Assembly (NCBI GenBank): GCA_964016885.1
Contig: OZ024743.1
Location: 286,316,001-286,380,000, forward strand
Direction of reading: 5' to 3'
Origin: Eledone cirrhosa
Taxonomy: Eukaryota
Length of the DNA stretch: 64,000 nucleotides
Shown: positions 21,666-64,000 of the stretch, one piece after another
How the letters are laid out: each line of letters starts with the position of its first letter
Position numbering within the stretch: the stretch's first letter is position 1
Program-made: the position numbers and the translations under genes
Notes under the pieces: model-generated
The model's database searches: none
Told to the model about the DNA's origin: nothing
The model's input: only the letters and a program-made list of their open reading frames with translations

Positions 21666-21977
21666 CATGAGCCAACTTATGCAGCTTCATATGCAAATGA
21701 AATTAATCACCTCATTTACACAGACGAGAAAACTATATATTCTCGCCTGTCTTCTAGTCCAGCAGTCGCAAGCGGTGGGAGGGACCGTCCTGACGATGGC
21801 CAGTTAAGCCTGAAATGCATAGACGGTTGTCCCCCTTGCTTCTGCTGGACATCACCAGAGGCCATTAGCCCCCCGGTGTTTGCATAGCTACGGCTTCCTA
21901 AAACCGTATTTCTTTGGAGATACGAAATATTTATACATATTGTATAAAGCTATGCTTGAAGCGAAATCCTATTTGTT
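21666..21977 (+). mobile_element. Small non-coding hammerhead-bearing element between (TA)n tracts
   Basis: Octamer at 21691-21698, TATATA at 21734-21739, long stem 21757-21850 enclosing a hammerhead. Confidence 0.7.
21784..21827 (+). ncRNA. Minimal type I hammerhead ribozyme (U.U stem II closure)
   Basis: ACCGTC-CTGACGA-T-GGC(CAGTTAA)GCC-T-GAAA-TGCA-TA^GACGGT: perfect 6-bp stem I, palindromic stem III ATGCAT, AUA site after 21821. Confidence 0.85.
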
Positions 21978-22117
21978 TATATATATATATATATATATAA
22001 GTTGAAAAAAATGAAAACGAAATTTCATTTCTCACTCTTAGTATGGCACTTACTTAAATGTAAGTATGCATGCATACGTACATACATATATGTATACAGA
22101 CGTACAGTAGCACGCAT

Positions 22118-22148
<31 letters not shown>

Positions 22149-22326
22149 CACATATATATACACATATGCATACAGGTACACATACATATATGCACGCATC
22201 AGTTTAGCCGACGTTTATTATAACGCCTGCTTTTTTCGTTTGTTTGTCAACAAATCGAACAGCCTGAATTTATGCCATACGGTGTTAAGGCAACCACGTC
22301 ACCTTTTTGTTCAACACTGACACAGG

Positions 22327-22371
22327 AACGATGTACTAGTTTCAAGCTTGTTAGCTATCATCAGCACCGTT
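22327..22371 (-). ncRNA. Minimal type I hammerhead ribozyme (first of 18 copies, one per unit)
   Basis: Minus strand: AACGGTG-CTGATGA-T-AGCT(AACA)AGCT-T-GAAA-CTAG-TA^CATCGTT. 7-bp stem I, palindromic stem III ACTAGT, GUA site between 22334 and 22333. Confidence 0.88.
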
Positions 22372-22404
22372 TACCCATCTGCCAGATAGTTGAACGTTCG
22401 AAAG

Positions 22405-22452
22405 TATATACTTTCCTTATGAAAATTAACGGCTGAGCAGCCTAATTTGCAT
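22405..22452 (-). promoter_or_regulatory. Candidate internal promoter: octamer ATGCAAAT - 34 nt - TATATA, upstream of the ribozyme (in every unit)
   Basis: ATTTGCAT at 22445-22452 and TATATA at 22405-22410; same spacing at 44072-44119 and, on the plus strand, at 21691-21739. Confidence 0.5.
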
Positions 22453-22610
22453 ATTGAGTGAGTTAAATCGGTCAGGCATACCGAAAACGATAAGTTGAAA
22501 AAAATGAAAACGAAATTTCATTTCTCACTCTTAGTATGGCACTTACTTAAATGTAAGTATGCATGCATACGTACATACATATATGTATACAGACGTACAG
22601 TAGCACGCAT

Positions 22611-22641
<31 letters not shown>

Positions 22642-23103
22642 CACATATATATACACATATGCATACAGGTACACATACATATATGCACGCATCAGTTTAG
22701 CCGACGTTTATTATAACGCCTGCTTTTTTCGTTTGTTTGTCAACAAATCGAACAGCCTGAATTTATGCCATACGGTGTTAAGGCAACCACGTCACCTTTT
22801 TGTTCAACACTGACACAGGAACGATGTACTAGTTTCAAGCTTGTTAGCTATCATCAGCACCGTTTACCCATCTGCCAGATAGTTGAACGTTCGAAAGTAT
22901 ATACTTTCCTTATGAAAATTAACGGCTGAGCAGCCTAATTTGCATATTGGGTGAGTTAAATCGGTCAGGCATACCGAAAACGATAAGTTGAAAAAAATGA
23001 AAACGAAATTTCATTTCTCACTCTTAGTATGGCACTTACTTAAATGTAAGTATGCATGCATACGTACATACATATATGTATACAGACGTACAGTAGCACG
23101 CAT

Positions 23104-23134
<31 letters not shown>

Positions 23135-23596
23135 CACATATATATACACATATGCATACAGGTACACATACATATATGCACGCATCAGTTTAGCCGACGT
23201 TTATTATAACGCCTGCTTTTTTCGTTTGTTTGTCAACAAATCGAACAGCCTGAATTTATGCCATACGGTGTTAAGGCAACCACGTCACCTTTTTGTTCAA
23301 CACTGACACAGGAACGATGTACTAGTTTCAAGCTTGTTAGCTATCATCAGCACCGTTTACCCATCTGCCAGATAGTTGAACGTTCGAAAGTATATACTTT
23401 CCTTATGAAAATTAACGGCTGAGCAGCCTAATTTGCATATTGAGTGAGTTAAATCGGTCAGGCATACCGAAAACGATAAGTTGAAAAAAATGAAAACGAA
23501 ATTTCATTTCTCACTCTTAGTATGGCACTTACTTAAATGTAAGTATGCATGCATACGTACATACATATATGTATACAGACGTACAGTAGCACGCAT

Positions 23597-23627
<31 letters not shown>

Positions 23628-24078
23628 CACATATATATACAGGTACACATACATATATGCACGCATCAGTTTAGCCGACGTTTATTATAACGCCTGCTTT
23701 TTTCGTTTGTTTGTCAACAAATCGAACAGCCTGAATTTATGCCATACGGTGTTAAGGCAACCACGTCACCTTTTTGTTCAACACTGACACAGGAACGATG
23801 TACTAGTTTCAAGCTTGTTAGCTATCATCAGCACCGTTTACCCATCTGCCAGATAGTTGAACGTTCGAAAGTATATACTTTCCTTATGAAAATTAACGGC
23901 TGAGCAGCCTAATTTGCATATTGAGTGAGTTAAATCGGTCAGGCATACCGAAAACGATAAGTTGAAAAAAAATGAAAACGAAACTTCATTTCTCACTCTT
24001 AGTATGGCACTTACTTAAATGTAAGTATGCATGCATACGTACATACATATATGTATACAGACGTACAGTAGCACGCAT

Positions 24079-24109
<31 letters not shown>

Positions 24110-24571
24110 CACATATATATACACATATGCATACAGGTACACATACATATATGCACGCATCAGTTTAGCCGACGTTTATTATAACGCCTGCTTTTTTCGT
24201 TTGTTTGTCAACAAATCGAACAGCCTGAATTTATGCCATACGGTGTTAAGGCAACCACGTCACCTTTTTGTTCAACACTGACACAGGAACGATGTACTAG
24301 TTTCAAGCTTGTTAGCTATCATCAGCACCGTTTACCCATCTGCCAGATAGTTGAACGTTCGAAAGTATATACTTTCCTTATGAAAATTAACGGCTGAGCA
24401 GCCTAATTTGCATATTGAGTGAGTTAAATCGGTCAGGCATACCGAAAACGATAAGTTGAAAAAAATGAAAACGAAATTTCATTTCTCACTCTTAGTATGG
24501 CACTTACTTAAATGTAAGTATGCATGCATACGTACATACATATATGTATACAGACGTACAGTAGCACGCAT

Positions 24572-24602
<31 letters not shown>

Positions 24603-25064
24603 CACATATATATACACATATGCATACAGGTACACATACATATATGCACGCATCAGTTTAGCCGACGTTTATTATAACGCCTGCTTTTTTCGTTTGTTTG
24701 TCAACAAATCGAACAGCCTGAATTTATGCCATACGGTGTTAAGGCAACCACGTCACCTTTTTGTTCAACACTGACACAGGAACGATGTACTAGTTTCAAG
24801 CTTGTTAGCTATCATCAGCACCGTTTACCCATCTGCCAGATAGTTGAACGTTCGAAAGTATATACTTTCCTTATGAAAATTAACGGCTGAGCAGCCTAAT
24901 TTGCATATTGAGTGAGTTAAATCGGTCAGGCATACCGAAAACGATAAGTTGAAAAAAATGAAAACGAAATTTCATTTCTCACTCTTAGTATGGCACTTAC
25001 TTAAATGTAAGTATGCATGCATACGTACATACATATATGTATACAGACGTACAGTAGCACGCAT

Positions 25065-25095
<31 letters not shown>

Positions 25096-25557
25096 CACAT
25101 ATATATACACATATGCATACAGGTACACATACATATATGCACGCATCAGTTTAGCCGACGTTTATTATAACGCCTGCTTTTTTCGTTTGTTTGTCAACAA
25201 ATCGAACAGCCTGAATTTATGCCATACGGTGTTAAGGCAACCACGTCACCTTTTTGTTCAACACTGACACAGGAACGATGTACTAGTTTCAAGCTTGTTA
25301 GCTATCATCAGCACCGTTTACCCATCTGCCAGATAGTTGAACGTTCGAAAGTATATACTTTCCTTATGAAAATTAACGGCTGAGCAGCCTAATTTGCATA
25401 TTGAGTGAGTTAAATCGGTCAGGCATACCGAAAACGATAAGTTGAAAAAAATGAAAACGAAATTTCATTTCTCACTCTTAGTATGGCACTTACTTAAATG
25501 TAAGTATGCATGCATACGTACATACATATATGTATACAGACGTACAGTAGCACGCAT

Positions 25558-25588
<31 letters not shown>

Positions 25589-26050
25589 CACATATATATA
25601 CACATATGCATACAGGTACACATACATATATGCACGCATCAGTTTAGCCGACGTTTATTATAACGCCTGCTTTTTTCGTTTGTTTGTCAACAAATCGAAC
25701 AGCCTGAATTTATGCCATACGGTGTTAAGGCAACCACGTCACCTTTTTGTTCAACACTGACACAGGAACGATGTACTAGTTTCAAGCTTGTTAGCTATCA
25801 TCAGCACCGTTTACCCATCTGCCAGATAGTTGAACGTTCGAAAGTATATACTTTCCTTATGAAAATTAACGGCTGAGCAGCCTAATTTGCATATTGAGTG
25901 AGTTAAATCGGTCAGGCATACCGAAAACGATAAGTTGAAAAAAATGAAAACGAAATTTCATTTCTCACTCTTAGTATGGCACTTACTTAAATGTAAGTAT
26001 GCATGCATACGTACATACATATATGTATACAGACGTACAGTAGCACGCAT

Positions 26051-26081
<31 letters not shown>

Positions 26082-26543
26082 CACATATATATACACATAT
26101 GCATACAGGTACACATACATATATGCACGCATCAGTTTAGCCGACGTTTATTATAACGCCTGCTTTTTTCGTTTGTTTGTCAACAAATCGAACAGCCTGA
26201 ATTTATGCCATACGGTGTTAAGGCAACCACGTCACCTTTTTGTTCAACACTGACACAGGAACGATGTACTAGTTTCAAGCTTGTTAGCTATCATCAGCAC
26301 CGTTTACCCATCTGCCAGATAGTTGAACGTTCGAAAGTATATACTTTCCTTATGAAAATTAACGGCTGAGCAGCCTAATTTGCATATTGGGTGAGTTAAA
26401 TCGGTCAGGCATACCGAAAACGATAAGTTGAAAAAAATGAAAACGAAATTTCATTTCTCACTCTTAGTATGGCACTTACTTAAATGTAAGTATGCATGCA
26501 TACGTACATACATATATGTATACAGACGTACAGTAGCACGCAT

Positions 26544-26574
<31 letters not shown>

Positions 26575-27036
26575 CACATATATATACACATATGCATACA
26601 GGTACACATACATATATGCACGCATCAGTTTAGCCGACGTTTATTATAACGCCTGCTTTTTTCGTTTGTTTGTCAACAAATCGAACAGCCTGAATTTATG
26701 CCATACGGTGTTAAGGCAACCACGTCACCTTTTTGTTCAACACTGACACAGGAACGATGTACTAGTTTCAAGCTTGTTAGCTATCATCAGCACCGTTTAC
26801 CCATCTGCCAGATAGTTGAACGTTCGAAAGTATATACTTTCCTTATGAAAATTAACGGCTGAGCAGCCTAATTTGCATATTGAGTGAGTTAAATCGGTCA
26901 GGCATACCGAAAACGATAAGTTGAAAAAAATGAAAACGAAATTTCATTTCTCACTCTTAGTATGGCACTTACTTAAATGTAAGTATGCATGCATACGTAC
27001 ATACATATATGTATACAGACGTACAGTAGCACGCAT

Positions 27037-27067
<31 letters not shown>

Positions 27068-27517
27068 CACATATATATACAGGTACACATACATATATGC
27101 ACGCATCAGTTTAGCCGACGTTTATTATAACGCCTGCTTTTTTCGTTTGTTTGTCAACAAATCGAACAGCCTGAATTTATGCCATACGGTGTTAAGGCAA
27201 CCACGTCACCTTTTTGTTCAACACTGACACAGGAACGATGTACTAGTTTCAAGCTTGTTAGCTATCATCAGCACCGTTTACCCATCTGCCAGATAGTTGA
27301 ACGTTCGAAAGTATATACTTTCCTTATGAAAATTAACGGCTGAGCAGCCTAATTTGCATATTGAGTGAGTTAAATCGGTCAGGCATACCGAAAACGATAA
27401 GTTGAAAAAAATGAAAACGAAATTTCATTTCTCACTCTTAGTATGGCACTTACTTAAATGTAAGTATGCATGCATACGTACATACATATATGTATACAGA
27501 CGTACAGTAGCACGCAT

Positions 27518-27548
<31 letters not shown>

Positions 27549-28010
27549 CACATATATATACACATATGCATACAGGTACACATACATATATGCACGCATC
27601 AGTTTAGCCGACGTTTATTATAACGCCTGCTTTTTTCGTTTGTTTGTCAACAAATCGAACAGCCTGAATTTATGCCATACGGTGTTAAGGCAACCACGTC
27701 ACCTTTTTGTTCAACACTGACACAGGAACGATGTACTAGTTTCAAGCTTGTTAGCTATCATCAGCACCGTTTACCCATCTGCCAGATAGTTGAACGTTCG
27801 AAAGTATATACTTTCCTTATGAAAATTAACGGCTGAGCAGCCTAATTTGCATATTGAGTGAGTTAAATCGGTCAGGCATACCGAAAACGATAAGTTGAAA
27901 AAAATGAAAACGAAATTTCATTTCTCACTCTTAGTATGGCACTTACTTAAATGAAAGTATGCATGCATACGTACATACATATATGTATACAGACGTACAG
28001 TAGCACGCAT

Positions 28011-28041
<31 letters not shown>

Positions 28042-28503
28042 CACATATATATACACATATGCATACAGGTACACATACATATATGCACGCATCAGTTTAG
28101 CCGACGTTTATTATAACGCCTGCTTTTTTCGTTTGTTTGTCAACAAATCGAACAGCCTGAATTTATGCCATACGGTGTTAAGGCAACCACGTCACCTTTT
28201 TGTTCAACACTGACACAGGAACGATGTACTAGTTTCAAGCTTGTTAGCTATCATCAGCACCGTTTACCCATCTGCCAGATAGTTGAACGTTCGAAAGTAT
28301 ATACTTTCCTTATGAAAATTAACGGCTGAGCAGCCTAATTTGCATATTGAGTGAGTTAAATCGGTCAGGCATACCGAAAACGATAAGTTGAAAAAAATGA
28401 AAACGAAATTTCATTTCTCACTCTTAGTATGGCACTTACTTAAATGTAAGTATGCATGCATACGTACATACATATATGTATACAGACGTACAGTAGCACG
28501 CAT

Positions 28504-28534
<31 letters not shown>

Positions 28535-28994
28535 CACATATATATACACATATGCATACAGGTACACATACATATATGCACGCATCAGTTTAGCCGACGT
28601 TTATTATAACGCCTGCTTTTTTCGTTTGTTTGTCAACAAATCGAACAGCCTGAATTTATGCCATACGGTGTTAAGGCAACCACGTCACCTTTTTGTTCAA
28701 CACTGACACAGGAACGATGTACTAGTTTCAAGCTTGTTAGCTATCATCAGCACCGTTTACCCATCTGCCAGATAGTTGAACGTTCGAAAGTATATACTTT
28801 CCTTATGAAAATTAACGGCTGAGCAGCCTAATTTGCATATTGAGTGAGTTAAATCGGTCAGGCATACCGAAAACGATAAGTTGAAAAAAATGAAAACGAA
28901 ATTTCATTTCTCACTCTTAGTATGGCACTTACTTAAATGTAAGTATGCATGCATACGTACATACATATATGTATACAGACGTACAGTAGCACGC

Positions 28995-29025
<31 letters not shown>

Positions 29026-29491
29026 CACACACATATATATACACATATGCATACAGGTACACATACATATATGCACGCATCAGTTTAGCCGACGTTTATT
29101 ATAACGCCTGCTTTTTTCGTTTGTTTGTCAACAAATCGAACAGCCTGAATTTATGCCATACGGTGTTAAGGCAACCACGTCACCTTTTTGTTCAACACTG
29201 ACACAGGAACGATGTACTAGTTTCAAGCTTGTTAGCTATCATCAGCACCGTTTACCCATCTGCCAGATAGTTGAACGTTCGAAAGTATATACTTTCCTTA
29301 TGAAAATTAACGGCTGAGCAGCCTAATTTGCATATTGAGTGAGTTAAATCGGTCAGGCATACCGAAAACGATAAGTTGAAAAAAATGAAAACGAAATTTC
29401 ATTTCTCACTCTTAGTATGGCACTTACTTAAATGTAAGTATGCATGCATACGTACATACATATATGTATACAGACGTACAGTAGCACGCAT

Positions 29492-29522
<31 letters not shown>

Positions 29523-29984
29523 CACATATATATACACATATGCATACAGGTACACATACATATATGCACGCATCAGTTTAGCCGACGTTTATTATAACGC
29601 CTGCTTTTTTCGTTTGTTTGTCAACAAATCGAACAGCCTGAATTTATGCCATACGGTGTTAAGGCAACCACGTCACCTTTTTGTTCAACACTGACACAGG
29701 AACGATGTACTAGTTTCAAGCTTGTTAGCTATCATCAGCACCGTTTACCCATCTGCCAGATAGTTGAACGTTCGAAAGTATATACTTTCCTTATGAAAAT
29801 TAACGGCTGAGCAGCCTAATTTGCATATTGAGTGAGTTAAATCGGTCAGGCATACCGAAAACGATAAGTTGAAAAAAATGAAAACGAAATTTCATTTCTC
29901 ACTCTTAGTATGGCACTTACTTAAATGTAAGTATGCATGCATACGTACATACATATATGTATACAGACGTACAGTAGCACGCAT

Positions 29985-30015
<31 letters not shown>

Positions 30016-30477
30016 CACATATATATACACATATGCATACAGGTACACATACATATATGCACGCATCAGTTTAGCCGACGTTTATTATAACGCCTGCTTT
30101 TTTCGTTTGTTTGTCAACAAATCGAACAGCCTGAATTTATGCCATACGGTGTTAAGGCAACCACGTCACCTTTTTGTTCAACACTGACACAGGAACGATG
30201 TACTAGTTTCAAGCTTGTTAGCTATCATCAGCACCGTTTACCCATCTGCCAGATAGTTGAACGTTCGAAAGTATATACTTTCCTTATGAAAATTAACGGC
30301 TGAGCAGCCTAATTTGCATATTGAGTGAGTTAAATCGGTCAGGCATACCGAAAACGATAAGTTGAAAAAAATGAAAACGAAATTTCATTTCTCACTCTTA
30401 GTATGGCACTTACTTAAATGTAAGTATGCATGCATACGTACATACATATATGTATACAGACGTACAGTAGCACGCAT

Positions 30478-30508
<31 letters not shown>

Positions 30509-30970
30509 CACATATATATACACATATGCATACAGGTACACATACATATATGCACGCATCAGTTTAGCCGACGTTTATTATAACGCCTGCTTTTTTCGTT
30601 TGTTTGTCAACAAATCGAACAGCCTGAATTTATGCCATACGGTGTTAAGGCAACCACGTCACCTTTTTGTTCAACACTGACACAGGAACGATGTACTAGT
30701 TTCAAGCTTGTTAGCTATCATCAGCACCGTTTACCCATCTGCCAGATAGTTGAACGTTCGAAAGTATATACTTTCCTTATGAAAATTAACGGCTGAGCAG
30801 CCTAATTTGCATATTGAGTGAGTTAAATCGGTCAGGCATACCGAAAACGATAAGTTGAAAAAAATGAAAACGAAATTTCATTTCTCACTCTTAGTATGGC
30901 ACTTACTTAAATGTAAGTATGCATGCATACGTACATACATATATGTATACAGACGTACAGTAGCACGCAT

Positions 30971-31001
<31 letters not shown>

Positions 31002-31193
31002 CACATATATATACACATATGCATACAGGTACACATACATATATCACGCATCAGTTTAGCCGACGTTTATTATAACGCCTGCTTTTTTCGTTTGTTTGTC
31101 AACAAATCGAACAGCCTGAATTTATGCCATACGGTGTTAAGGCAACCACGTATATATATATATATAAATTGGAATAAATGCTCTGAAATAGCG

Positions 31194-37885: not shown

Positions 37886-40800
37886 CTTGGGGAGGGTCAT
37901 ATTGTTGTAATAATATTGCCAGAATTAATAACAGAACACACTCACTGTTTGGTTGGTTTTCGCTTCTGTGTCTTTTATATCGGTTAATTTAATTTATTCG
38001 CTCCTCAATGTTACCATTGACTGACCAACGGTCAAACATACAGATACAATATAGACACAAACACATATATATATAGTCTAACAAAGTTCTTTCGTTGCAC
38101 ATTTGCAACATCGTCAGTGGTGCTATTATGTTTCCTCCTGTTGTATTGAATGCCTACGCCATCTTTATTTAGTTTGTTTATTTATTTATTTATTTATTTA
38201 TTGTCTTCTCTGCGCATGCGTTTGCGTGTGTGTATAGTGTTTGATGTGTGTTCGTGTTTGGGTGACTGTGTATTCGTTATTGTATTCTATCTTAGTTTAC
38301 TAGTGTGTGTTTATATGTGTTTGTTGTTATTGTGCTTGTGTATGTATTTATTTATTTATTTATTTATACTTCTCTTAGGTCAGTATTGTTTGTTTGGGTG
38401 TTGTTGTTATTCTATTCATTTTTTATGTTTAGCCTTGGCCTTCTAAGCTCTATTTCGCTGGCCTCTCTGATTTGCCTATCTGCTGGGTCATTTCTATGTT
38501 TAGATATTATTCTAATTTCTATGTTGTCTATGTTACAGTCGTGTTGTTATCTGGCATGTTCTTATAGTACTGAACCGTTTTTTCGTCCTTTTAGTTCCCC
38601 CCAGTGTTGGTCTATCCGTTCACCTATGCTACGAGCTGTCTCACCTATGTATGTTGTTGTCATGTTTCTGCAAGTACCCTCTGTACATCTTATGCTATAG
38701 ACTACGTTTCTAGTTTTACAGTTTATCCGGGGGTTTACTTTACATATGATACATTTCCTATTGGTACAGTGGGTTTTCTTAAAAGGGTAGGTTTTGCTGA
38801 TCAGGGATTTTATGGTGGTTCCTGGCTTTTCTACCACCTTAATCTTTAAGTGGGTCTTTCTCAGGGCCTTTCTACACTGGTTAGCTAATTTCCCTCCAGG
38901 GGTAGCGTCCACAAACATGACACTCTGGTATCTCTGGTTGTCGTACCATGAGGTGGCTTTCCCTATCTTATGTCTAGTCCTATCTAAGCTATTCCATAAT
39001 TTGCTCCTGTATAATGGGCAAATTCCTTTCATGTCCAGTTCTATGAGGGTCTTATACTTCTCCGTGGCTCCTTCGTATACTCTGATTCTGTCTCTTTGGT
39101 TGTAGCCAGAGAACTGCATGCAGTTGATGAAGTGTTGGATGTGTCTTTCCATTTCTGTTGGGTCGCACATGCGGGACACGTTCTTCATCACTCGTACCAA
39201 GTCTGCGATCAGAATATTAAACTTAGCACTACTGGACATTGCTGAGTTTTTGAGTATCAGGTATTTGGAGGCCATGGGTTTAGCATAGTGTGAGTGGAGA
39301 ATTTGGGCTCTCTCGTCTATAGTGTTAATCCAGAGTTCCGTGTCTAATACAGGTAGTCTATTGTTAGGGTGTTTGGAAGGGTAGTCGATAGTTAGTTATA
39401 CTCTGGTGTATGGAATTAGCTATCTGCTGGATGTTTTCCATTGTGCTACGTTCTAAATCAAACTTGTTAGTACTCTCTTGTGGGGATGTCCTTATTACTA
39501 TATTGATGTCGTCTACGTAACGAGAGTACATGATGAGGTCTATGGAGCTCTCATCAAGGAGATCTTTGAGTCTCCTTTCCCACCATACCATAAAAAGGTT
39601 GGCAACGTCACCAGCTATGCTGACGCCAATGGCTGCTCCCTCATTTTGGGTGTAGATCTTCTCGTTGAATTTGAATATGTGGCCCTTTAGGGTAGTTTTG
39701 ATACTAGCCGCTATTGCATGTGCGACCATTTTTCTTACCTGATCATTGTTTTGGGGGTCCGTATAGCTTTGGTCCACCCAATCTACCTTCCCATGAGAGT
39801 TTTTTTTGCCATTGAGGTTATGGTGGGGGGTCTACCTCTTATGGGTCTACTGGGGCAGAAACGTCTAAGGTCATGGCTGTCTAGGTAGTCAGTGTCGTAG
39901 GTACTCTAAGTAGGAGGCCCAGTTCGTCTGTGTCGACGTCGCAGAACTCCACCTCACTCTCAATGATCATCTCCACACATCTTTCCACAGCAAAATCAAT
40001 GTTAATGGATGGGTACAGTGATACCACACCCATACTGCCTATTATGCAGTTGGATAGGTTGCTGTTTTTGTTGCACTCACTGATTCTGCTGAGGAGGTCC
40101 TCTGTATTGTCACATACATCTGGGGACATCTTGATTATGGGGCGTATAACCATTGAGAGGAAGTAGGAGATCCTGTAGTTGCTAGCTATATTTTCTCCGC
40201 ATACGGGTCTTGTTGGTGGTCCTGTTGTTGGGTCGTCGACTGTCTTATGGTCTTTGCGGAGCCCATACAAGGGGGTATGCCATTGTTAGACGCCTGGAAG
40301 TTGTTGGCAGTGCGTCTGTTTGACTTTAGGATGTCGGTCCACATCATCATGTGAGTGATGAGGATTTTCTCTCTCCCATCATGTATTTGCTGTGCAATTT
40401 CGCTCGTGTTGGTGATGTGGGGTTGCATAGCCTTGATGTAGTTCGGCATGCTGTCTATTGACATCCTACCAGACTTATCCGTGGGTTATACTACCTCACC
40501 ATCCCTTGTGCGCTGCTTGAGGCTAACCAAGCCTTCTACAGGTTTCCTCCCAAGTTGTTGGACCTCTGGTCTGCTTTGTCTCTTAGTATACCGGTCTACT
40601 ATTTGTCTAATCTTATTTCTAGCTATGTTGAACTGTACCTCTGTCTCGTCATCTATTTGTTGTGGTATACAAACCCTTTTATTAAAGGGTAACCTCGTAG
40701 GATAGATATTACCCATCTTATATGTTTTGTCAGCTGGATTGAAGTCTAAACAGAAAAAATGAATAGAATAACAACAACACCCAAACAAACAATACTGACC

Positions 40801-41324
40801 TAAGAGAAGTATAAATAAATAAATAAATACATACACAAGCACAATAACAACAAACACATATAAACACACACTAGTAAACTAAGATAGAATACAATAACCA
40901 ATACACAGTCACCCAAACACGAACACACATCAAACACTATACACACACGCAAACGCATGCGCAGAGAAGACAAAAATAAATAAATAAACTAAATAAAGAT
41001 GGCGTAGACATACAATACAACGGGAGGAAACATAATAGCACCACTGACGATGTTGCAGATGTGCAACGAAAGAACTTTGTTAGACTATATATATGTGTTT
41101 GTGTCTATATTATACCTGTATGTTTGACCGTTGGCCAGTTAATGGTAACATTGAGGACCGAATAGATTAAATTAACTGATATAAAAGACACAGAAGCGAA
41201 AACCAACCAAACAGTGAGTGTGTTCTGTTATTAATTCTGGCAATATTATTACAACAATATGACCCTCCCCAAGTATAACAATATTTGTTTCGACACGATT
41301 TCATATCAAAAACCTTGCAAAACT
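37886..41324 (-). mobile_element. Penelope-like element, 5'-truncated, with inverted pLTRs and a 12-bp TSD
   Basis: Minus-strand ORF pieces 38430-40745 (YGLRKDHK, TRPV, SLYPSI, AIGVSIAG, YSRYVDD, VVYSIRC...YIGET); pLTR 37886-38432 is inverted at 40746-41276 plus a tail to 41324; TSD AATGTAAATATA at 37874-37885 and 41325-41336. Confidence 0.92.
38078..38125 (-). ncRNA. Minimal hammerhead motif in PLE pLTR (second copy at 41036-41083, plus strand)
   Basis: CTGACGA-T-GTTGCA(RATG)TGCAAC-GAAA-GAACT-T-TG; stem I is weak. Confidence 0.55.
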
Positions 41325-43444: not shown

Positions 43445-43634
43445 CAAATTAACAATGAAAAAAAAAAGTCAAGTTACTTTATAACTTTGTTTTTATTTTG
43501 TTGTTTTTATTTTTATTGTTAATTTAATACCTAATATCTGACTCTGTAGAATTAATTCAGCGAAACACAGAACTTCTCTATGGATTTTACAAGATTACAT
43601 TCAGTTCTATCCAGCGGTAGACCAGACTGAAAAA

Positions 43635-43673
<39 letters not shown>

Positions 43674-43735
43674 ATAATAAATAAATATATATATATATAT
43701 ATGTGTGTGTGTATAATAAATAAATATATATATAT

Positions 43736-44211
43736 ATAAACGGAAAAAATGAAACGAAATTTCATTTCCCACTCTTAGTACGGCTGTTACTTAAATATAA
43801 GTATGTACACGTACATACATATATGAATACAGACGTACAGTAGTATGTATATATATATACACACATGCACACATATATATATGTACGTATGGATTCACCG
43901 AACATTTATTATAATGCTCGGTGTGTTTGTAAACAAACATCCAGAATTAAGCCGTAGTGTCTAGCAACCATCGTTGCTCGTTTGTTCAACACTGACAAAG
44001 GAACGCTGTACTAGTTTCAAGCTTATTAGCTATCGTCAGCAACGTATACCTTCCTGCCAGATTGTTGAACGTATATACTTACCTTATGCATATTAACGGC
44101 TGAGTAGCCCAATTTGCATATCGAGGGGGTTAATCAGCCGGGTGCACCGAAAACGATAAACGGAAAAAATGGAAACGAAATTTCATTTCCCACTCTTAGT
44201 ACGGCTGTTAC
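43736..44211 (-). mobile_element. Diverged relative of the 493-bp unit: 420-bp period, about 1.13 copies
   Basis: Shares AAACGAAATTTCATTTC(C/T)CACTCTTAGTA, TACAGACGTACAGTAG, TTTGTTCAACACTGACA, the hammerhead and CCGAAAACGATAA; start repeats at 43741 and 44161. Confidence 0.88.
44003..44045 (-). ncRNA. Minimal type I hammerhead ribozyme (U.U variant)
   Basis: Minus strand: ACGTTG-CTGACGA-T-AGCT(AATA)AGCT-T-GAAA-CTAG-TA^CAGCGT. Confidence 0.85.
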
Positions 44212-44504
44212 ATACATACATATATACACACACAGGCCGACGTTGGTGTTTGATGAGGTTGAGAACCTGGTCAGCTTTCAGTCAGAGCTGTTGTATTTAA
44301 TCTGCCTAGGTAATACAATCTGGAGACAAAATTTTCTCCTTACCAAAAGAAAACATAAATCAAGTCAACATCCTGACACACTTAAATATAAATGCATGTA
44401 TATATACAAATATATAAATACATAGCTATATACATAGCTAAATGTATGTATATATCTATGTATGTAGATTTTTATATATATATATGAACGTATATGTGTA
44501 TGTA

Positions 44505-46274
44505 TTTATTGTCAGCTGCTGGCCCTCCCCTTTTGTGCAGCAGATATTTGGTAGGGAGTTCTTGTTCCTGTATTGCATAGAGATATCCCTCAAGGTGTGA
44601 TGTCATAAACTTGTCGGAACTCCATGCCAGGCTTTTTGAGTGGTTTATCCCCTCTATGGTCTGTGGTTTACGTCTCAAGTATCCATGCACAACTTTTTCT
44701 GTAAATTGGTCAATTTTTTCATCTTGTTTGAACATTGAATAGGATCTTCCGATTTCTCTGGGTGAGAGATTTATATCAGGCTTTATTCCATATCTCTCCT
44801 CCAGATCAGTCGCTATTCTAATGATATTTTTTTTTTCATGCTCATAAACCTGGGCAAGATGGTTGCCAACCTTTTTCCTCTTTTGAAGGTGTTGCTTCAG
44901 TGTTTCTATCCGGGTCTCATATGTTGTTAATATGGATTTTAGATCCCGGCCACCTTCCTTGCGTGAGAAGTATAGCCTATCCACATCACCATTGATGTTA
45001 AAGTTCCCAGTAACACTGAGAAGTTTGCGAGTTCTAACATCCATCTCACTTAGTTCTTGCAATGACCAGTTCAGCAGGCCAAATGTTGGCGCTAGAATTG
45101 GCACAGCATAAGTATTGTGGGCAATGTATTTGTTGTACGTTGACCGTTCTGATGACCATATTTTCTTTACTCTTCTGAGGTATTCAGTTCTGGTTCTCTC
45201 CTTATTTATGGGTCCATCATATCTGACATTCTCGTCCTGTCCAAGATATCTGTAGTTGTCACCTGACTGTAGAGGTTGTATTGTCAGGCCGTTCATCTCT
45301 AGATTTTTAGAGGAGGGCACAGCTCTTCCACGTTTTACTGCCAAATATGCACACTTGGACTCACCAAATTTCATTTTGATGTCTGTTGAAAATGGTGTAA
45401 TGAGGTCCAATTGTTTCTTGATGTCATTGATATTTGGCCCATCAACTTCAGGTCATCAACAAAGAAAAGATGGGAGATACTTCTGGACCCACTTCTTTGT
45501 CCACCTTGTTTGCTGAGTAGGTAAGATAGTGGATTTAGTGAGAGAACGAAGAGTAGCACTGACAAGCTATCACCTTGAAAGATGCCCTTCTGGTAATGTA
45601 TCTTATCAGTCTTAACTTGCTCCTTCTCACCTCTAAGGATCAAATTGGTGTACCAGTTCTTGGTCAGGCGTTCAACAGCAGCTACCGATGGTTGTGGGAC
45701 TTTGGCTAACTGTAAAGCCTTAATAATCCACCCATGAGGTACACTATCAAATGCTTTTTGATAGTCCAGCCACACCACTGTCATGTTTCTGCGATTCTTT
45801 GTTGTTTTTTCCTGAATCATTTTATTAGTTAGTAGGTGATCTATGCAACCCCACACCTCCCTATTTCCACCAGCTTGCTCAGGTATTGCGATGTTGTTGG
45901 TAGCACAGTGATCCTGTAAGAACAGGTTAAAGCACCCAGTATATAATTTATACATGATGTTTTGGCAGGCTATTGGGCGGTAATTTTTAGCAAGGGTGGT
46001 TTGGCTATTTTGGGGAATGAGGAGAGTAGTGGCAGTTGATAACCATCTGGGCAGTTCTTGTGTGCCTTTAATGGTTTCTGTAAACAGCCGTATGAGATCT
46101 TACCGATAAAAAGTGAAATTCTTCAACTAGTATCCTGTAATGAGGTCTGGGCCTGGTGATTTCCTATTCGACATTTTCTGTAGAGCTGTTTCCAGGATTG
46201 ACCCATCTATGTCATATTGTTTGGTCTGGACATGTTGGCAGTAGTCCTGTTCCAGTTCTTTTAGCCAATTAGTT
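44505..46274 (-). mobile_element. R4/Dong-like RT fragment (family C), truncated at both ends
   Basis: WLDYQKAFDS, GIFQGDSLS, FFVDDLKL, YRYLG, AIQEQE; stops before the zinc finger. Confidence 0.85.
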
Positions 46275-48070
46275 TGTATGTATGTATTCTTCTGGTTTTA
46301 TAATTTCACAAAGTTTTACCAATAGAGAGAGAGTCGGTTTCTAACATAGACACGAGACTCTCATTGGAATTTACACAACATCAACTAGGTAGATATGTAT
46401 GTATGCATGTGTAGATATGGATGTTATTGTATGTGTGGATGTGTATGTTTTGAGTTGTATGTGTGCATGTGTATATGCTTTGTCTCTGTACATGTGTATA
46501 TTCAGTTATTAGATGTAAAATTTTTTGAATGTTTTACATATTTTTACTATTCCATTAATGGATTGTACTTGTAGTTTCCTAACTAGTTGTGTTCTTTCTG
46601 TTCCTGTGAAGCCTAGCTTCTCAAGATTTGTATTGAGGCAGTTACTAACATATCCCAGTGCCCCAATAATCACAGGCATAAATCTGAAGGTGTAATCAGG
46701 GTGGAGTATCTGCAGATTTCTCATCAGTTCTGCATAAATATTCTCCTTTTCACTAATCTTTGATATTATATTGGCATCTGCTGGGCAGCTAATTTCCACT
46801 ACTGTGCATGTTTTCTTCTCCCTGTCCCATATCATAATATCTGGTCTGTTATGCCTGCATTTTATTGGGGTTTTTACTGGAACATTCCACCAGTACTCTT
46901 TCATATTATGTACATGGATGTCTTCCACATTGTTGTAGCTTTTAATGTGTTTATTATCGGGGCTATCTTTTTTACGAACTGCATTGGCCACTACATCATG
47001 CCTCATAGGTAGGTAGATAGTACCGCGATGACATCTTTGGGCAGCTGCTGATGACATGGGTGATATCCTCGATGTTAGTTCTGCAGAGTCTGCACTTGTT
47101 ATCACATCTAGGTGTTTTGCCTGCATCCCTATCTCTTTTGTGAATCAGGTATTTCGTGCTAATCTCCTGTTCTTGGATTGCAAAAGCGTATCCTTCAAAG
47201 TGGGAGCCAATATAGCGGTTGTTGGTCCAAGATAAACTACTTTCCTTATCTATATTACTCTCACTCTTGAGCTTCCTGGCAACATATCCATGCATCATTT
47301 TTTGCTGATAAGTATGCAGTTTTTCATCCATGGATTCACTGCGATACTGCTGAGCGACATCCCTGGGTGTGAGTTTTTGATTATCACACAGGGAATATCT
47401 CTCAAGGAGTTCCTTCCCAACTCTCATGATCTTATCTGTTTCATGCAGATAGACTTGCTCGAGAAACGGGCTCCTACGCTTCGAGGTTCGTAGATATTGT
47501 CGGAGAGATATGATGCGACATTCAAATGTTGTCTGGACTGATGTTAGGCCTCTGCCTCCCTGCTTACGTTTCAAGTAAAGGCGGTCTATGTCACTGTTGA
47601 TGTGGAAGTTTCCGATATTGTTCAGTATTTTTCGAGTTCCAACATCAACTGCTCGGATTTCGTCTATCGTCCAATTGAGTATTCCAAACGTTGGTGTTAG
47701 GACAGGCACAGCAAACACATTGTGAGCCACTGTTTTGTTTTGCGCAGAGAGTTCCGATGACCAGATCTTTCTTAATCGGGTGTAGTATTCCCTGGTTACG
47801 CGTTCTTTATTACAGATACCATTATAAGATATGTTCTCATCTATCCCCAGGTATCTGTAGCAGTCCTCATCAGATATCGGTGAAACAGTTAGGCCATTGA
47901 TGACAATGTTGCTAGATTGGGTTGTTGTTTTTCCCCGCTTTACAGTCATGTATGAGCATTTATCTTGGCCAAACTCCATTCCTATATCCTTTGAGAACGT
48001 TGTAACCAGGTCAAGATTTTTCTTCATCCCATCCATGTTCTTGGCATAGTTTCAGATCGTCCACAAAGAA
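46275..48070 (-). mobile_element. 3' part of R4/Dong-like family D (tandemly duplicated segment) with (TACA)n tail
   Basis: ORFs 46996-48036 and 46509-47126 (CRLC..H..C, RHD, HNRPD); near-identical to 48071-49825. Confidence 0.88.
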
Positions 48071-51000
48071 GAGAGTCGGTTTCTAACATAGACACAAGAC
48101 TCTCTCCTTGGAATTTACACAACATCAACTAGGTAGATATGTATGTATGCATGCATGTGTAGATATGGATGTTATTGTATGTGTGAATGTGTATGTTTTG
48201 AGTTGTATGTGTGCATGTGTATATGCTTTGCATCTGTACATGTGTATATGCAGTTATTAGATGCAAAATGTTTGGAATGTTTTACATATTTTCACTATTC
48301 CATTAATGGATTGTACTTGTAGTTTCCTAACTAGTTGTGTTCTTTCTGTTCCTGTGAAGCCTAGCTTCTCAAGATTTGTATTGAGGCAGTTACTAACATA
48401 CCCCAGTGCCCCAATAATCACAGGCATAAATCTGAAGGTGTAATCAGGGTGGAGTATCTGCAGATTTCTCATCAGTTCTGCATAAATATTCTCCTTTTCA
48501 CTAATCTTTGATATATTGGCATCTGCTGGGAAGCTAATTTCCACTACTGTACATGCTTTCTTCTCCCTGTCCCATATCATAATATCTGGTCTGTTATGCC
48601 TGCATTTTATTGGGGTTTTTACTGGAACATTCCACCAGTACTCTTTCATATTATGTACATGGATGTCTTCCACATTGCTGTAGCTTTTAATGTGTTTATT
48701 ATCGGGGCTATCCTTTTTACGAACTGCATTGTACAGTGTTTTGGCCACTACATCATGCCTCATAGGCAGATAGTACCGCGATGACATCTTTGGACAGCTG
48801 CTGATGACATGGGTGATATCCTCGATGTTAGTTCTGCAGAGTCTGCACTTGTTATCACATCTAGGTGTTTTGACTGCATCCCTATCTCTTTTGTGAATCA
48901 GGTATTTCGTGTTAATCTCCTGTTATGGGATTGCAAAAGCGTATCCTTCAAAGTGGGAGCCAATATAGCGGTTGTTGGTCCAAGATAGACTACTTTCCTT
49001 ATCTATATTACTCTCACTCTGGAGCTTCCTGGCAACATATCCATGCATGATGTTTTGCTGATAAGTATGCAATTTTTCATCCATGGATTCACTGCGATAC
49101 TGCTGAGCGACATCCCTGGGTGTGAGTTTTTGATTATCACACAGGGAATATCTCTCAAGGAGTTCCTTCCCAACTCTCATGATCTTATCTGTTTCATGCA
49201 GATAGACTTGCTCGAGAAACGGGCTCCTACGCTTCGAGGTTCGTAGATATTGTCGGAGAGATATGATGCGACATTCAAATGTTGTCTGGACTGATGTTAG
49301 GCCTCTGCCTCCCTGCTTACGTTTCAAGTAAAGGCGGTCTATGTCAATGTTGATGTGGAAGTTTCTGGTGTTGTTTAGTATTTTTCGAGTTCCAACATCA
49401 ACTGCTCAGATTTCGTCTATCGTCCAATTGAGTATTCCAAACGTTGGTGTTAGGACAGGCACAGCAAACACATTGTGAGCCACTGTTTTGTTTTGCGCAG
49501 AGAGTTCCGATGACCAGATCTTTCTTAATCGGGTGTAGTATTCCCTGGTTACGCGTTCTTTATTACAGATACCATTATAAGATATGTTCTCATCTATCCC
49601 CAGGTATCTGTAGCAGTCCTCATCAGATATCGGTGAAACAGTTAGGCCATTGATGACAATGTTGCTAGATTGGGTTGTTGTTTTTTCCCGCTTTACAGTC
49701 ATGTATGAGCATTTATCTTGGCCAGACTCCATTCCTATAGCCTTTGAGAACGTTGTAACCAGGTCAAGATTTTTCTTCATCCAATCCATGTTCTTGGCAT
49801 AGAGTTTCAGATCGTCCACAAAGAAATTATGGTTTAGGTTCGTATTTCTGTCCTCCTGTGAGCCAATGATGTATCCCTCACATTTCTTGAGCAGAAAGGA
49901 CAAGGGGTTTAATGACAAGATGAATAATATCACAGAGAGACTGTCCCTCTGAAATATACCCCTGAAATATTTTATTTTATCAGTGAAAATAGAGTCCTCC
50001 TTCTCTGTCTTTAACCTTAGGATAGTAGCCCAAGAAGAAGACAGCCTCTCTATGGCTCTGACAATAATGTCTGGGACTTTAGCAAGTTGGAGGGCCTCTA
50101 TCATCCAAGAGTGGGAAACAGAATCGAAAGCTTTCCTGTAGTCCAGCCAGACTGTAGCCATATTCCTCCTAAGTTGTCGCACTTCTTGTTTGAGGGTAAT
50201 CAGCTTATATTGGAGAGATCTGGTTCTACTGTTACCAAACATCGCCTCTATTTTATTTTTCACTCTTTGTTGGTGAGGAGTGGAGTAAGTTTTTTTTGTG
50301 CTTGTTTGCATGTAAGGAGCATTGTCACATATCCTATATTTCTTCGTAGGTCAGCAATATTTTTTTCTATTTTAGTTATATATGATGGTATTTTTGGTGG
50401 TGTTCTGTTCTTGTTAATATCTCTGCTACCACCAAGATAATGCTTCACTGTCGTTGCTAAGGCATATAAACAGGCGTTGATTTGCCAAAATGTTGGGGTT
50501 TTTATCCGTCGTAAATATTCATCCCCTATTTCGTCAATAACACGTAATATTTCATTATTTGTTTTTTTTTTTATTAAACATTGTCGTTTTAATACGTTCA
50601 GCAAGAGAGATATTTATACATGAATTAATTTCTCTCTGGGAGATTTCGTTGAGGGAAAATTCCAATTGTTTATACTTTTGATTATCATTATCGATAGTAT
50701 TTTCCACAACAGTCGAGGTAGACTCGGATGGTACACGTGGTGTCAAATTTCTTCGATTATTATTATTATTATTTCTTCGATTATTATTATTATTATCGAT
50801 AGTGTTTTCCCCAGCATTCGAGGTCGACTTAGATGGTACAGGTGGTATAAAGTTTCTTACAGGCATAGTTGCTTCAAGGCACTGTTCGACCTGGCTGCTA
50901 GGAAGTCTAGTAGCATGGCGACCTGTAGCACGTGTTGTTGATAACATGTTTGTTGTGGGGGACTTACAATTAATAATATTTATCTTATTTTTACGTTCAA

Positions 51001-56976: not shown

Positions 56977-58815
56977 GGTGTGGCGCCGGAAGGCAAGATG
57001 ATCTCTTGTTTCAATCCTGAGGTCAAAGATGCCATCCGAGCAAATAAGGGGGTCTACAAAGCGGGACTTATAAAATTAAGTCCTCCTTGCACTTGCGGTA
57101 CAAGCAGGTACGAAAAATCGCAGCAGACAGTAAAGGCGTCCAAAGTTAAGACATGGGAGGACTTCAGAGTTAAGCTAGAATCCTACGTCAGATCAGCAAA
57201 TAAAGTGTTTTGTCAGATCATCCACCAACTTCGTAATAAGAAGTCCTCCTCCACACATGCTATCAGGAACGCGTCAGATGTTCTCCTCTCTTTAGAGATG
57301 TGCATCCTCGCGAGGTGGAGTGAATACTTTGCTGGTCTCCTAAACCCGATCACAACAGCATTTTCTGATGCACACGAAGTGCATCTGAGAGTGGTGACTA
57401 ATCTCTCGGAGGCTGAGATCACAAGAGTAGTTAAAGAGCTTAAATATGGCAAGGCTTATGGGGAGGATGAAATCCGGTCCGAGATGTTAAAAGCCATAAA
57501 CAGAGAAGGTATTCTCTGACTTACTCGTGTGATCTGAGTGATCTGGATCTATGGAAAGGCATCTAAGCAATGGTAATCGGGAGTGATAATCCAAATTTTC
57601 AAAAGGGAAGACAAGTGAGATTATTCCAATTATAGAGGGATTTCCTTGTTAAGCCTCCCCGGTAAAGTCTTTGCTAAGTGTCTAGCAAAGAGATGTAGAG
57701 ATATTGTCGAGTCCTAGCCAACAGATGAACAGTGTGGTTTTCGCCTTGAACGCAACACAGCCGACAAAATATTCACACTGCGGCAAATCTTTGAGAAATC
57801 GTAGGAGTACTGTCAAGAGGTGTATTCTTGCTTTGTAGACCCCGAAAAGGCATATGACCGCGTTCCACGGGATCTGCTGAGGAAGATTCTGCAAGAGCAT
57901 GAGATCAAAGGTCAGCTTCTTGTTGCCGAGTATTTGTGTTCAAATAAATGGCGCTAAATTGAAACCATTCAAGGTGCGTACTATCACCTCTCCTGTTCAT
58001 TATTTTCATGAACAGGATTAACATGCACAGTCGGGTTTTAAATGCGATCACGACTGGCAGGTGTAAAATAGTCGGTTGGAATTTGGAGAAGACATTATAT
58101 TACTTAACTTGACAGAAGGTGATCTTCGACTTGCACTTGATAGGTTTGATGCCGAGTGCTGCATGGCGGAAATGAAGATCAGTGCTGCGAAAACTGAGAC
58201 GCTCGTCTTCTCAAGAGAGCCAGCGCAGTGCACTCTAAATGTGAATAGAGTTCCACTGAAGCATGGGAAGAAGTTCACGTATCTAGGGGCCATGTTCACA
58301 TGTGATTGACGGCAGGTGGCTGAATTAAGTACAAACATTGCAACCGCTGGTGCAGTAATGCGCCAGCTTCAATATTCAGTAATCAGATGAAGATTGCTAT
58401 CTTCAATTCGGTATTGGTTCCAACCATTACCTATGGTCATAAATTTTGGGGTAAGAATACGATCGCGGATACAAGCGGCCGAAATAGGATTCCCCCGAAG
58501 AGTCTTTGGAGTAACGTTACTCAATACAGCGCTTAACTCGGAGATCAGAGAGGTACTTCAGGTAGAGCTGAACTCCGATACTACGGGCATGTGGTTAGAA
58601 TGTCTCGGGGAAGAATCATTGGACAGATTTTACGGGCAAAACCAGCCAGTAGGAGATCCTGGGGTAGACCCAAGCAAGATGGTTGGATAACAATAATTAA
58701 CTCGGCCGGTCTTGCTTGGGGATCCAGCCGGGTCAGTTGGAGACGGTTGCTCGTGACAGGACTCGCTGGAATGAGTGTTTGAGGACTCTGCTCCCACTTC
58801 CCCATCAGGAATAAG
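56977..58815 (+). mobile_element. Degenerate RTE/RTEX-type LINE, 5'-truncated
   Basis: RWSEYF, KAYGEDEI, NYRGISLLSLPGK, QCGFR, FVD.EKAYD, FTYLG, RIQAAE; many stops; (GAC)n(GAA)n tail at 58821-58951. Confidence 0.82.
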
Positions 58816-58819
58816 AGGA

Positions 58820-58852
<33 letters not shown>

Positions 58853-59839: not shown

Positions 59840-59925
<86 letters not shown>

Positions 59926-61559: not shown

Positions 61560-61628
<69 letters not shown>

Positions 61629-62627: not shown

Positions 62628-62714
<87 letters not shown>

Positions 62715-63808: not shown

Positions 63809-64000
63809 GTTTTTTTTTAAAGAAAGGACACATAGGAGAATGTAAAAAAAAGTAAAAGGCTCTGAACTCATGATAGAATCGTAAGAGTGTCGCCATGACA
63901 AATAGCAGGTCTTAGACATTAAAAACTTTGGGGAGCTCATCCTTCTCCAGGTCTGAACATAGTCGATTTATGCCGGAGAGAAAGAGAGAGAGAGTGAATG

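What the first reader, a model, noticed from the sequence alone, without database searches (positions are those of the whole stretch)
43736..44211. Diverged 420-bp sister element conserves the ribozyme through covariation
Seen: the unit is clearly diverged and 73 bp shorter, yet the catalytic core is unchanged. Differences fall at tolerant sites: N7 U to C, loop II AACA to AAUA, and a stem I G.U pair (ACGGUG/CAUCGU) swapped to U.G (ACGUUG/CAGCGU). A second helix is also kept: GGCTGA/TCGGTC in the array and CGGCTGA/TCAGCCG here. Inference: selection acts on RNA structure, so this is a dispersed family rather than a local satellite.
Basis: partly seen in the sequence, partly recalled or inferred. 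Interest (0 to 1): 0.75.

Follow-up and report, generated by a model that had tools for sequence, protein, structure and literature searches.

The report
Promoter-bearing hammerhead retrozyme, solo copy
This stretch is one copy of a very abundant, protein-less repeat of a known kind (an animal retrozyme) that carries a hammerhead self-cutting RNA motif; its RNA fold has likely been kept by selection on one strand, and it likely carries its own promoter resembling that of the host's U6-type genes, though neither cutting nor transcription was tested.

Summary
The sequence facts hold: a 420-bp unit plus a 56-bp terminal repeat, with a type I hammerhead on the minus strand that differs from the array's at four tolerant positions. 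The family is dispersed: 24,001 exact core matches genome-wide. The G·U/U·G swap is one event, and the 'second helix' has no double change and is mismatched on the ribozyme strand in 64 of 70 copies. A tree-aware test still supports selection on RNA structure: lineage-shared changes keep pairing in 37 of 46 cases, against 99 of 255 private changes, and only on the ribozyme strand. Insertions show Penelope marks: optional tail, inverted parts, (TA)n targets. Upstream lie a box found at -76 to -78 in host U6 and MRP genes and a TATA box, which put a predicted start just 5' of the ribozyme; the spacing is 4-6 nt shorter than the host's. The scan already noted this promoter reading on at least 8 other stretches of this genome, and newt and schistosome elements are precedents. 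No RNA data were available. Verdict: new variant of a known kind.

The parts
43736..44211 (-). Whole insertion: one 420-bp unit plus a 56-bp 3' tail; a single hammerhead (solo monomer)
   Evidence: 3' ends of relatives fall at the tail end or tail start
44156..44211 (-). First copy of the 56-bp terminal repeat, with a predicted hairpin and a T6 run (44169-44164)
44109..44120 (-). Octamer-containing box; 11 of 12 letters match the box at -77 of host U6 gene L180 (array unit: 12 of 12)
44099..44103 (-).
   Evidence: resemblance judged by eye
44072..44078 (-). TATA box, 42 nt after the octamer; predicted transcription start at 44047 (TATA + 30, the host U6/MRP distance)
   Evidence: the start is inferred
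43984..44070 (-). Predicted long rod that extends hammerhead stem I; shared changes here keep pairing
44003..44045 (-). Type I hammerhead motif: stem I 44045-44040/44008-44003, core 44039-44033 and 44018-44015, U·U at 44032/44019, stem II 44031-44028/44023-44020, palindromic stem III 44015-44010, predicted cut between 44009 and 44008
43792..43879 (-). Microsatellite-like (TA/TG/CA) self-complementary part; source of most of the length difference to the array unit
43736..43791 (-). 3' tail (second copy of the terminal repeat) with a T6 run at 43749-43744, the first run of four or more T after the predicted start
43634..43738 (.). (TA)n-rich microsatellite into which the 3' end is inserted
21997..31151 (-). 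Tandem array of the related 493-bp subfamily, 18.6 units with 18 hammerhead cores
21668..21978 (+). Distantly related family B unit with the same layout: box at 21690, TATA 43 nt later, hammerhead core at 21790

Best explanation
This is a solo, one-hammerhead copy of an abundant non-coding repeat family that likely spreads as a non-LTR retrozyme copied by Penelope-type retrotransposons, with its RNA fold likely under selection in the source lineages. Shown: family size and dispersal, hammerhead motif on the minus strand, subfamily ladder, Penelope-type insertion anatomy, and a box plus TATA matching host U6/MRP upstream regions at a fixed distance from the ribozyme. Inferred steps: (1) the box and TATA start transcription just 5' of stem I; (2) in tandem copies a transcript that reads through the tail T-run reaches the next unit; (3) two hammerheads pair through their palindromes and cut, while the monomer rests in an inactive fold; (4) the cut-to-cut monomer, which holds the promoter internally, is circularised; (5) a Penelope reverse transcriptase/endonuclease primes at either end of the 56-nt tail on nicked (TA)n DNA and copies more than one round, giving arrays, partial tandems and inverted parts. 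This copy has one hammerhead, so it cannot yield a cut-to-cut monomer by itself and is probably a dead end.
For: Dispersal: 12,336 + 11,665 exact core matches, control 0; family covers 0.40% of 600 kb sampled at round coordinates, 8 of 60 stretches. Constraint: 0 shared changes at 23 of 23 core, stem II and stem III sites while 77 of 298 other sites have one (P = 0.001; for the 11 core sites alone 0.04). Structure: shared changes keep pairing in 37 of 46 cases, private in 99 of 255 (p = 2e-7); opposite strand 13 of 30 against 84 of 244 (p = 0.42); 0 of 58 column-permuted controls reach 80%. Some of these changes lie in helices 5' of the predicted start, so the selected RNA spans the unit junction. 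Circular monomer folds at z -8.3 and -10.5 on the ribozyme strand against -3.4 and -6.0 opposite. Deep relatives: stem I pair 1 G-C in 6 and C-G in 5 of 13 representatives, three different stem III palindromes. Dimer: double hammerhead -19.4 kcal/mol against -16.2 for two best-folded monomers, whose core is sequestered. Penelope marks: of 97 outer 3' ends, 45 at tail end and 32 at tail start; 75 followed by (TA)4+ against 7.7% background; 31 of 66 sites with an inverted part; these match PMC11167929 and 10.1101/2021.04.23.441226. Penelope-type fragments lie in the window. Promoter: 3 of 3 distinct U6 upstream regions shown and 1 of 1 MRP gene carry the box at -76 to -78 with TATA 30 nt before the start; outside families A and B the 12-mer occurs 3 times in 1.2 million strand-bases, none with a TATA at that distance; TATA + 30 falls 8-31 nt before the core in 16 of 16 representatives.
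Against: Two-sided covariation within the family is not significant (2 double changes, reached by 2 of 58 controls). Without the microsatellite the strand contrast nearly vanishes for the sister (z -4.1 against -3.5), though not for the array (-4.1 against -1.1). The best-scoring dimer is another fold (-20.7) than the double hammerhead. The 10.1-11.1 pair is U·U (51 of 70) or mostly C·A in the older subfamily (13 of 70), not G-C. Only 1 of 9 predicted Xenopus retrozymes cut in vitro, and hammerhead mutants did not impair Penelope insertion in vitro. Box-to-TATA spacing is 42 against 46-48 in host genes; the distal box shared by host U1, U2, U6 and RNase P genes is absent from sister and array at up to one mismatch. 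A T6-T7 run between units should stop polymerase III (established knowledge); T-run depletion after the start is not significant (14 against 20.8, p = 0.08). Sampling bias: 70 of the 100 loci were picked by the box and 30 by the core, so zero change at those motifs is partly built in; stem I pairs 1-4 were required by the parser. No autonomous partner was identified.
Confidence: 0.7

Rival explanations
1. Ordinary retrozyme without a working promoter: the box and TATA are kept for another reason (RNA fold, protein binding) and RNA arises by read-through from host transcription.
For: Spacing is 4-6 nt off the host's; distal box absent; the box can be folded into a hairpin; a review states that retrozymes seem to lack promoters and proposes read-through (PMC7761336).
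Against: 12-letter match to a host motif that is rare in background; box, TCAG-like element and TATA kept at fixed distances across families whose other sequence is barely alignable; some families have the host spacing of 47-48.
Confidence: 0.25
2. The promoter is real but of the polymerase II snRNA type, as reported for newt satellite 2, which would let transcripts pass the T-runs.
For: TCAGC lies 26 nt before TATA, like TCAGT in host U1/U2 (by eye); needs no terminator read-through; newt precedent (cited in PMC2220036 and PMC6765202).
Against: Host U1 (4 loci) and U2 (2 loci shown) lack the proximal octamer box that U6 and MRP have; RNase P carries TCAGT and ends in a T-run, so TCAGT does not mark polymerase II alone; first T-run after the start sits at the unit's end.
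Confidence: 0.25
3. The units are detached terminal repeats of an autonomous Penelope element, spread passively; the fold is selected for binding the Penelope protein, and cutting or circles play no part.
For: Xenopus retrozymes are related to Penelope terminal repeats; hammerhead cutting was not needed for insertion in vitro; non-canonical 10.1-11.1 pair.
Against: Catalytic letters and palindromic stem III are kept across deep relatives; 18-unit head-to-tail arrays without an ORF; the Penelope copy in the window has a different hammerhead without the box.
Confidence: 0.15
4. A neutral satellite or young repeat whose conserved core reflects chance and recent amplification.
For: The two-sequence comparison is not significant; private changes hit the core.
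Against: Strand-specific, branch-specific pair keeping; fixed 3' ends and (TA)n targets; dispersal.
Confidence: 0.03

Closest known systems
Metazoan non-LTR retrozymes (Cervera and de la Pena 2020, PMC7229834; Li, Clavereau and Pollet 2026, 10.64898/2026.07.22.740005)
   Same: Non-coding, low-GC units with one type I hammerhead, as monomers, dimers and arrays in thousands of copies; predicted self-paired circle; co-occurs with Penelope elements. Axolotl HHR_Amex2 also has a U·U at the base of stem II and a two-pair stem III and cuts better as a dimer.
   Different: Unit of 420-493 bp, above the 170-400 nt given in 2020 but inside the 51-972 bp range of 2026; carries a host U6/MRP-like box and TATA, whereas a 2020 review says retrozymes seem to lack promoters; no cephalopod case was seen in the passages read.
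Newt satellite 2 (Coats, Zhang and Epstein 1994; paper not held, seen only as cited in PMC2220036 and PMC6765202)
   Same: Tandem hammerhead unit with an internal snRNA-type promoter.
   Different: Reported as polymerase II; here the best match is to genes that are polymerase III in other animals (U6, MRP; established knowledge). Details of the newt promoter could not be compared.
Schistosoma Sm-alpha SINE-like repeats (Ferbeyre et al. 1998; not held, seen as summarised in PMC6765202)
   Same: Polymerase III promoter followed by a hammerhead; tandem copies needed to propagate; single copies lose that ability.
   Different: No tRNA gene-like promoter was tested here; the promoter-like part is an upstream box plus TATA; mobilisation marks are Penelope-like.
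Penelope-like element terminal repeats with minimal hammerheads (PMC4209133; PMC11167929)
   Same: Optional 3' tail from two priming sites, 5' truncation, inverted parts, AT-rich targets, palindromic stem III.
   Different: No ORF; tail of 56 nt against 30-40; no autonomous element sharing this unit was found in the loci in hand.

Membership tests
Non-LTR retrozyme | Type I hammerhead motif in each unit | tested here: met
   Rfam models do not detect it
Non-LTR retrozyme | Short non-coding, low-GC unit in tandem and dispersed copies | tested here: met
   no stop-to-stop frame of 120 aa overlaps 43736-44211
Non-LTR retrozyme | [quoted passage not shown] 2026) | tested here: not met
   this copy has one core; the array (18 cores) and relatives such as L002 meet it
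Non-LTR retrozyme | Highly self-paired predicted circular monomer | tested here: met
   z -8.3 and -10.5; about half of the signal comes from the microsatellite part
Non-LTR retrozyme | Self-cleavage in vitro and circular RNA in vivo | not testable with these tools
   no RNA holder listed
Canonical hammerhead | G10.1-C11.1 closing pair of stem II | tested here: not met
   U·U in 51 of 70 units, C·A in 14, C-G in 2; U·U is described for axolotl HHR_Amex2
Penelope-mobilised element | Optional 3' tail, 5' truncation with inverted part, AT-rich target | tested here: met
   77 of 97 ends at tail start or end, 31 of 66 sites inverted, 75 of 97 ends at (TA)n
Penelope-mobilised element | Sequence shared with the terminal repeat of an autonomous Penelope element | tested here: inconclusive
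   only loci in hand were searched with pieces of one Penelope copy; no genome-wide partner search
U6-type (type 3) polymerase III promoter | Host proximal box and TATA box | tested here: met
U6-type (type 3) polymerase III promoter | Host spacing (46-48 nt) and host distal box | tested here: not met
   42 nt; distal box absent; related families have 47-48
U6-type (type 3) polymerase III promoter | T-run terminator with no earlier T-run | tested here: inconclusive
   first T-run 298 nt after the start, at the unit's end; depletion over 16 representatives p = 0.08
U6-type (type 3) polymerase III promoter | Measured start site and polymerase III dependence | not testable with these tools
   needs RNA data or bench work

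The most novel reading that the evidence does not exclude
A superfamily of Penelope-copied ribozyme circles captured the host's U6/MRP-type upstream promoter and carries it inside the cut-to-cut circular RNA, so that a normally external promoter survives retrotransposition; it has kept this layout across tens of thousands of copies and many diverged families, under selection on the fold of the whole circle.
Probability: 0.45. Interest if true: 0.7.

Novelty: new variant of a known kind. Interest (0 to 1): 0.45.

Why it matters
The finding as posed (a dispersed hammerhead repeat with a conserved core) is what retrozymes are known to be. Two things go further. First, comparing shared with private changes gives strand-specific genomic evidence that the fold of the unit, not only the ribozyme, is selected, including helices that can form only in a read-through or circular RNA. 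Second, if the box and TATA work as a promoter, they answer how animal retrozymes get transcribed, which a review left to read-through, and show how an upstream promoter can ride along in a retroelement. Both make a direct test easy: one cloned dimer and one 5' mapping experiment.

Tried and rejected
Rfam scans found no hammerhead; the miRNA-family hits at 43785-43950 are far below gathering scores and reflect the microsatellite hairpin. Sequencing runs: no RNA holder listed; contigs of four coded runs of unknown kind show the same variant positions but say nothing on expression. Classical covariation was tested and is not significant; one search used a mis-registered structure string for the outer helices and is superseded. 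The dimer energies had an index error and are superseded (the monomer energies and insertion counts stand). BLAST of U2 upstream regions against the unit gave only microsatellite-level matches. T-run depletion was not significant. No Penelope partner was found among loci in hand. Coats 1994 and Ferbeyre 1998 are not held. Rows dropped: of 282 BLAST hits in 100 loci, 141 covered box through ribozyme and were collapsed to 68 sites; alignment A2 used 58 of the 67 listed site segments (those of 89 nt) plus sister and array; the structure was folded from 24 of 70 units and tested on all 70; the 13 and 16 family representatives were picked by hand.

Full report
Setting. The window lies on contig C4 of a 3.0-Gb animal genome; an octopus is likely from size and repeat make-up, but that is inference. 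It holds a 493-bp array of 18.6 units at 21997-31151 and the related copy at 43736-44211.

Observation. The copy is one 420-bp unit plus a 56-bp repeat of its start, with its 3' end on the minus strand running into (TA)n. The hammerhead is on the minus strand at 44045-44003. It is type I, with a six-pair stem I, a four-pair stem II closed by U·U, and a stem III of two pairs within a six-letter palindrome. For two sequences this contrast is not significant (P = 0.08 for the 11 core sites; Fisher p = 0.10). Rfam does not detect the motif. The second helix fails: on the ribozyme strand its middle pair is C·A in 64 of 70 units, none of 7 pairs has a double change, and its right arm is simply near-invariant.

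Family. The 31-letter core pattern has 24,001 exact matches and the reversed control none; a 23-letter pattern 80-88 nt upstream has 20,560; an older subfamily has 1,051. The family covers 0.40% of 600 kb sampled at round coordinates. From 100 loci on contig C1 (70 picked by the upstream pattern, 30 by the older core), 68 independent sites plus sister and array gave a tree that is a ladder of subfamilies. The variable stem I pair is G·U in 35, U·G in 26, A-U in 6 and other in 3 of 70; the U·G state maps to a single branch of 27 tips.

Selection. Changes on branches of three or more tips (source lineages) were separated from private ones (decay after insertion). No shared change hits the 23 core, stem II and stem III sites, while 77 of 298 sites outside the hammerhead have one (P = 0.001; core alone 0.04). 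Private changes hit the core at 1.3% of cells against 2.1% elsewhere (p = 0.15). On a structure folded by energy alone from 24 of the 70 units, shared changes keep pairing in 37 of 46 cases and private ones in 99 of 255 (p = 2e-7). On the opposite strand the figures are 13 of 30 and 84 of 244 (p = 0.42), and none of 58 column-permuted controls (mean 54%, sd 7%) reaches 80%. Nearly all of this is one-sided change through G·U; double changes number 2 (2 of 58 controls reach that), and the pair-count tool finds 3 of 28 pairs with a double change against 2.9 shuffled. So structure is selected, on the ribozyme strand and beyond the ribozyme, but classical covariation inside the family is not demonstrated. 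It appears among deeper relatives found by a profile at E<=0.01 or by pattern: in 13 hand-picked representatives stem I pair 1 is G-C in 6 and C-G in 5, 77 of 78 cells pair (pairs 1-4 were required by the parser; pairs 5-6, not required, pair in 25 of 26), and 10 of 13 have a perfect stem III palindrome of three different sequences. Circular monomers fold at z -8.3 and -10.5 (opposite strand -3.4, -6.0); without the microsatellite, linear z is -4.1 for both, against -3.5 and -1.1 opposite. In the monomer's best fold the core pairs with loop III; a double hammerhead scores -19.4 kcal/mol against -16.2 for two monomers, though another dimer scores -20.7.

Mobilisation. Among 66 sites, 31 have an inverted part; of 97 outer 3' ends, 45 stop at the tail's end, 32 at its start and 20 elsewhere; 75 are followed by (TA)4 or longer, against 7.7% of random windows. 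An optional tail between two priming sites and AT-rich targets are the Penelope signature (PMC11167929, abstract and main text read; inverted and partial tandem copies in 10.1101/2021.04.23.441226, passages). Decayed Penelope-type pieces lie in the window, but the partner of this family was not identified.

Promoter. Three distinct U6 upstream regions and the one MRP gene carry a 12-letter octamer-containing box at -76 to -78 and a TATA box 30 nt before the start; four U1, two U2 and the RNase P locus lack that box and carry TCAGT instead. The array unit matches one U6 box in 12 of 12 letters and the sister in 11; family B's usual box equals that of another U6 gene and MRP. A TCAGC element and a TATA box follow. 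TATA + 30 gives 44047, two bases 5' of stem I, and falls 8-31 nt before the core in 16 of 16 representatives. Outside families A and B the 12-mer occurs 3 times in 1.2 million strand-bases, never with TATA at that distance. Box and TATA at the host spacing occur 873 times genome-wide against 153 for the control; many listed hits are slipped A or B copies, and some are further hammerhead families. Against: spacing 42 instead of 46-48, no distal box, no significant T-run depletion, and a T6-T7 run that would have to be read through. These families are related, so they count as one origin kept long, not as independent origins. Pair-keeping changes at 44064 and 44057, 5' of the predicted start, imply that the selected RNA spans the unit junction, as a circle or read-through would.

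What is known. Non-LTR retrozymes are described from coral, mussel and axolotl, with circles shown and a U·U variant that cuts better as a dimer (PMC7229834, passages and part 3 of 6). A 2026 preprint links them to Penelope terminal repeats, and only 1 of 9 tested cut (parts 1-3 of 5). A review says they seem to lack promoters (PMC7761336, passages), but newt satellite 2 and schistosome repeats are reported with internal promoters (PMC2220036 and PMC6765202, passages; originals not held). Palindromic stem III and dimer cutting are in PMC4209133 (passages). PMC10886601 (passages) added nothing. Searches listed no paper on cephalopod retrozymes or on a U6-type promoter in Penelope-copied retrozymes; the library lacks most subscription papers and Repbase, and no supplements were read (those of PMC7229834 and the preprint may list further species). 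The scan itself had already recorded the promoter reading on 8 listed stretches of this genome (957 notes fit the look-up), none near this window; I had reached it before that call, and one note led me to the review's statement.

Verdict. Observation partly confirmed; interpretation right in conclusion, weak in proof. A retrozyme family copy, new variant of a known kind; interest 0.45, or 0.7 if the carried promoter is shown to work.

Noticed in passing
window 21668-21978 (+): Second hammerhead family (B), about 310 bp, same box-TATA-ribozyme layout, lying next to the array's 3' end; 2,387 first-look candidates in the genome, with truncated and inverted parts.
   Followed up: partly
window 38090-41071: Decayed Penelope-type element on the minus strand (weak RVT_1 hit, E 6e-5, below cut-off; GIY-YIG-like end by eye) between two inverted hammerhead-like motifs at 38117 (-) and 41044 (+).
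   Followed up: partly
window 20301-20970 (+): GIY-YIG fragment (PF01541, E 4e-4, below cut-off) followed by a hammerhead-like motif at 20942.
   Followed up: no
window 31627, 35353, 56399 (+): Further hammerhead-like motifs of other families; 47 structure-filtered motifs were found in 600 kb of sampled genome.
   Followed up: partly
L161, L163, L173, L177, L178, L179, L180, L208 upstream regions: Host U1, U2, U6 and RNase P genes share a distal TTACCTCCC-like box at about -250 to -290, and split into two proximal types: TCAGT (U1, U2, RNase P) and an octamer-containing box (U6, MRP).
   Followed up: partly
L271, L279, L282, L290 (around position 1500): Hammerhead-like families whose box-to-TATA spacing equals the host U6 spacing (47-48 nt).
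   Followed up: partly
L131-L160: Older subfamily with C·A at 10.1-11.1 and U at the cut site, 1,051 exact matches.
   Followed up: partly
window 44472-50350 (-), 551-7664 (+), 10992-14259 (+): Fragments of LINE-type reverse transcriptase frames; the one beside the sister scores RVT_1 at E 5e-19.
   Followed up: no
window about 58600-64000: A duplication with a period of about 2.94 kb (93-bp repeats at 60069 and 63008).
   Followed up: no
L017 2190-3320: A 151-bp sub-unit of the sister family containing the ribozyme region repeated in tandem about six times.
   Followed up: no
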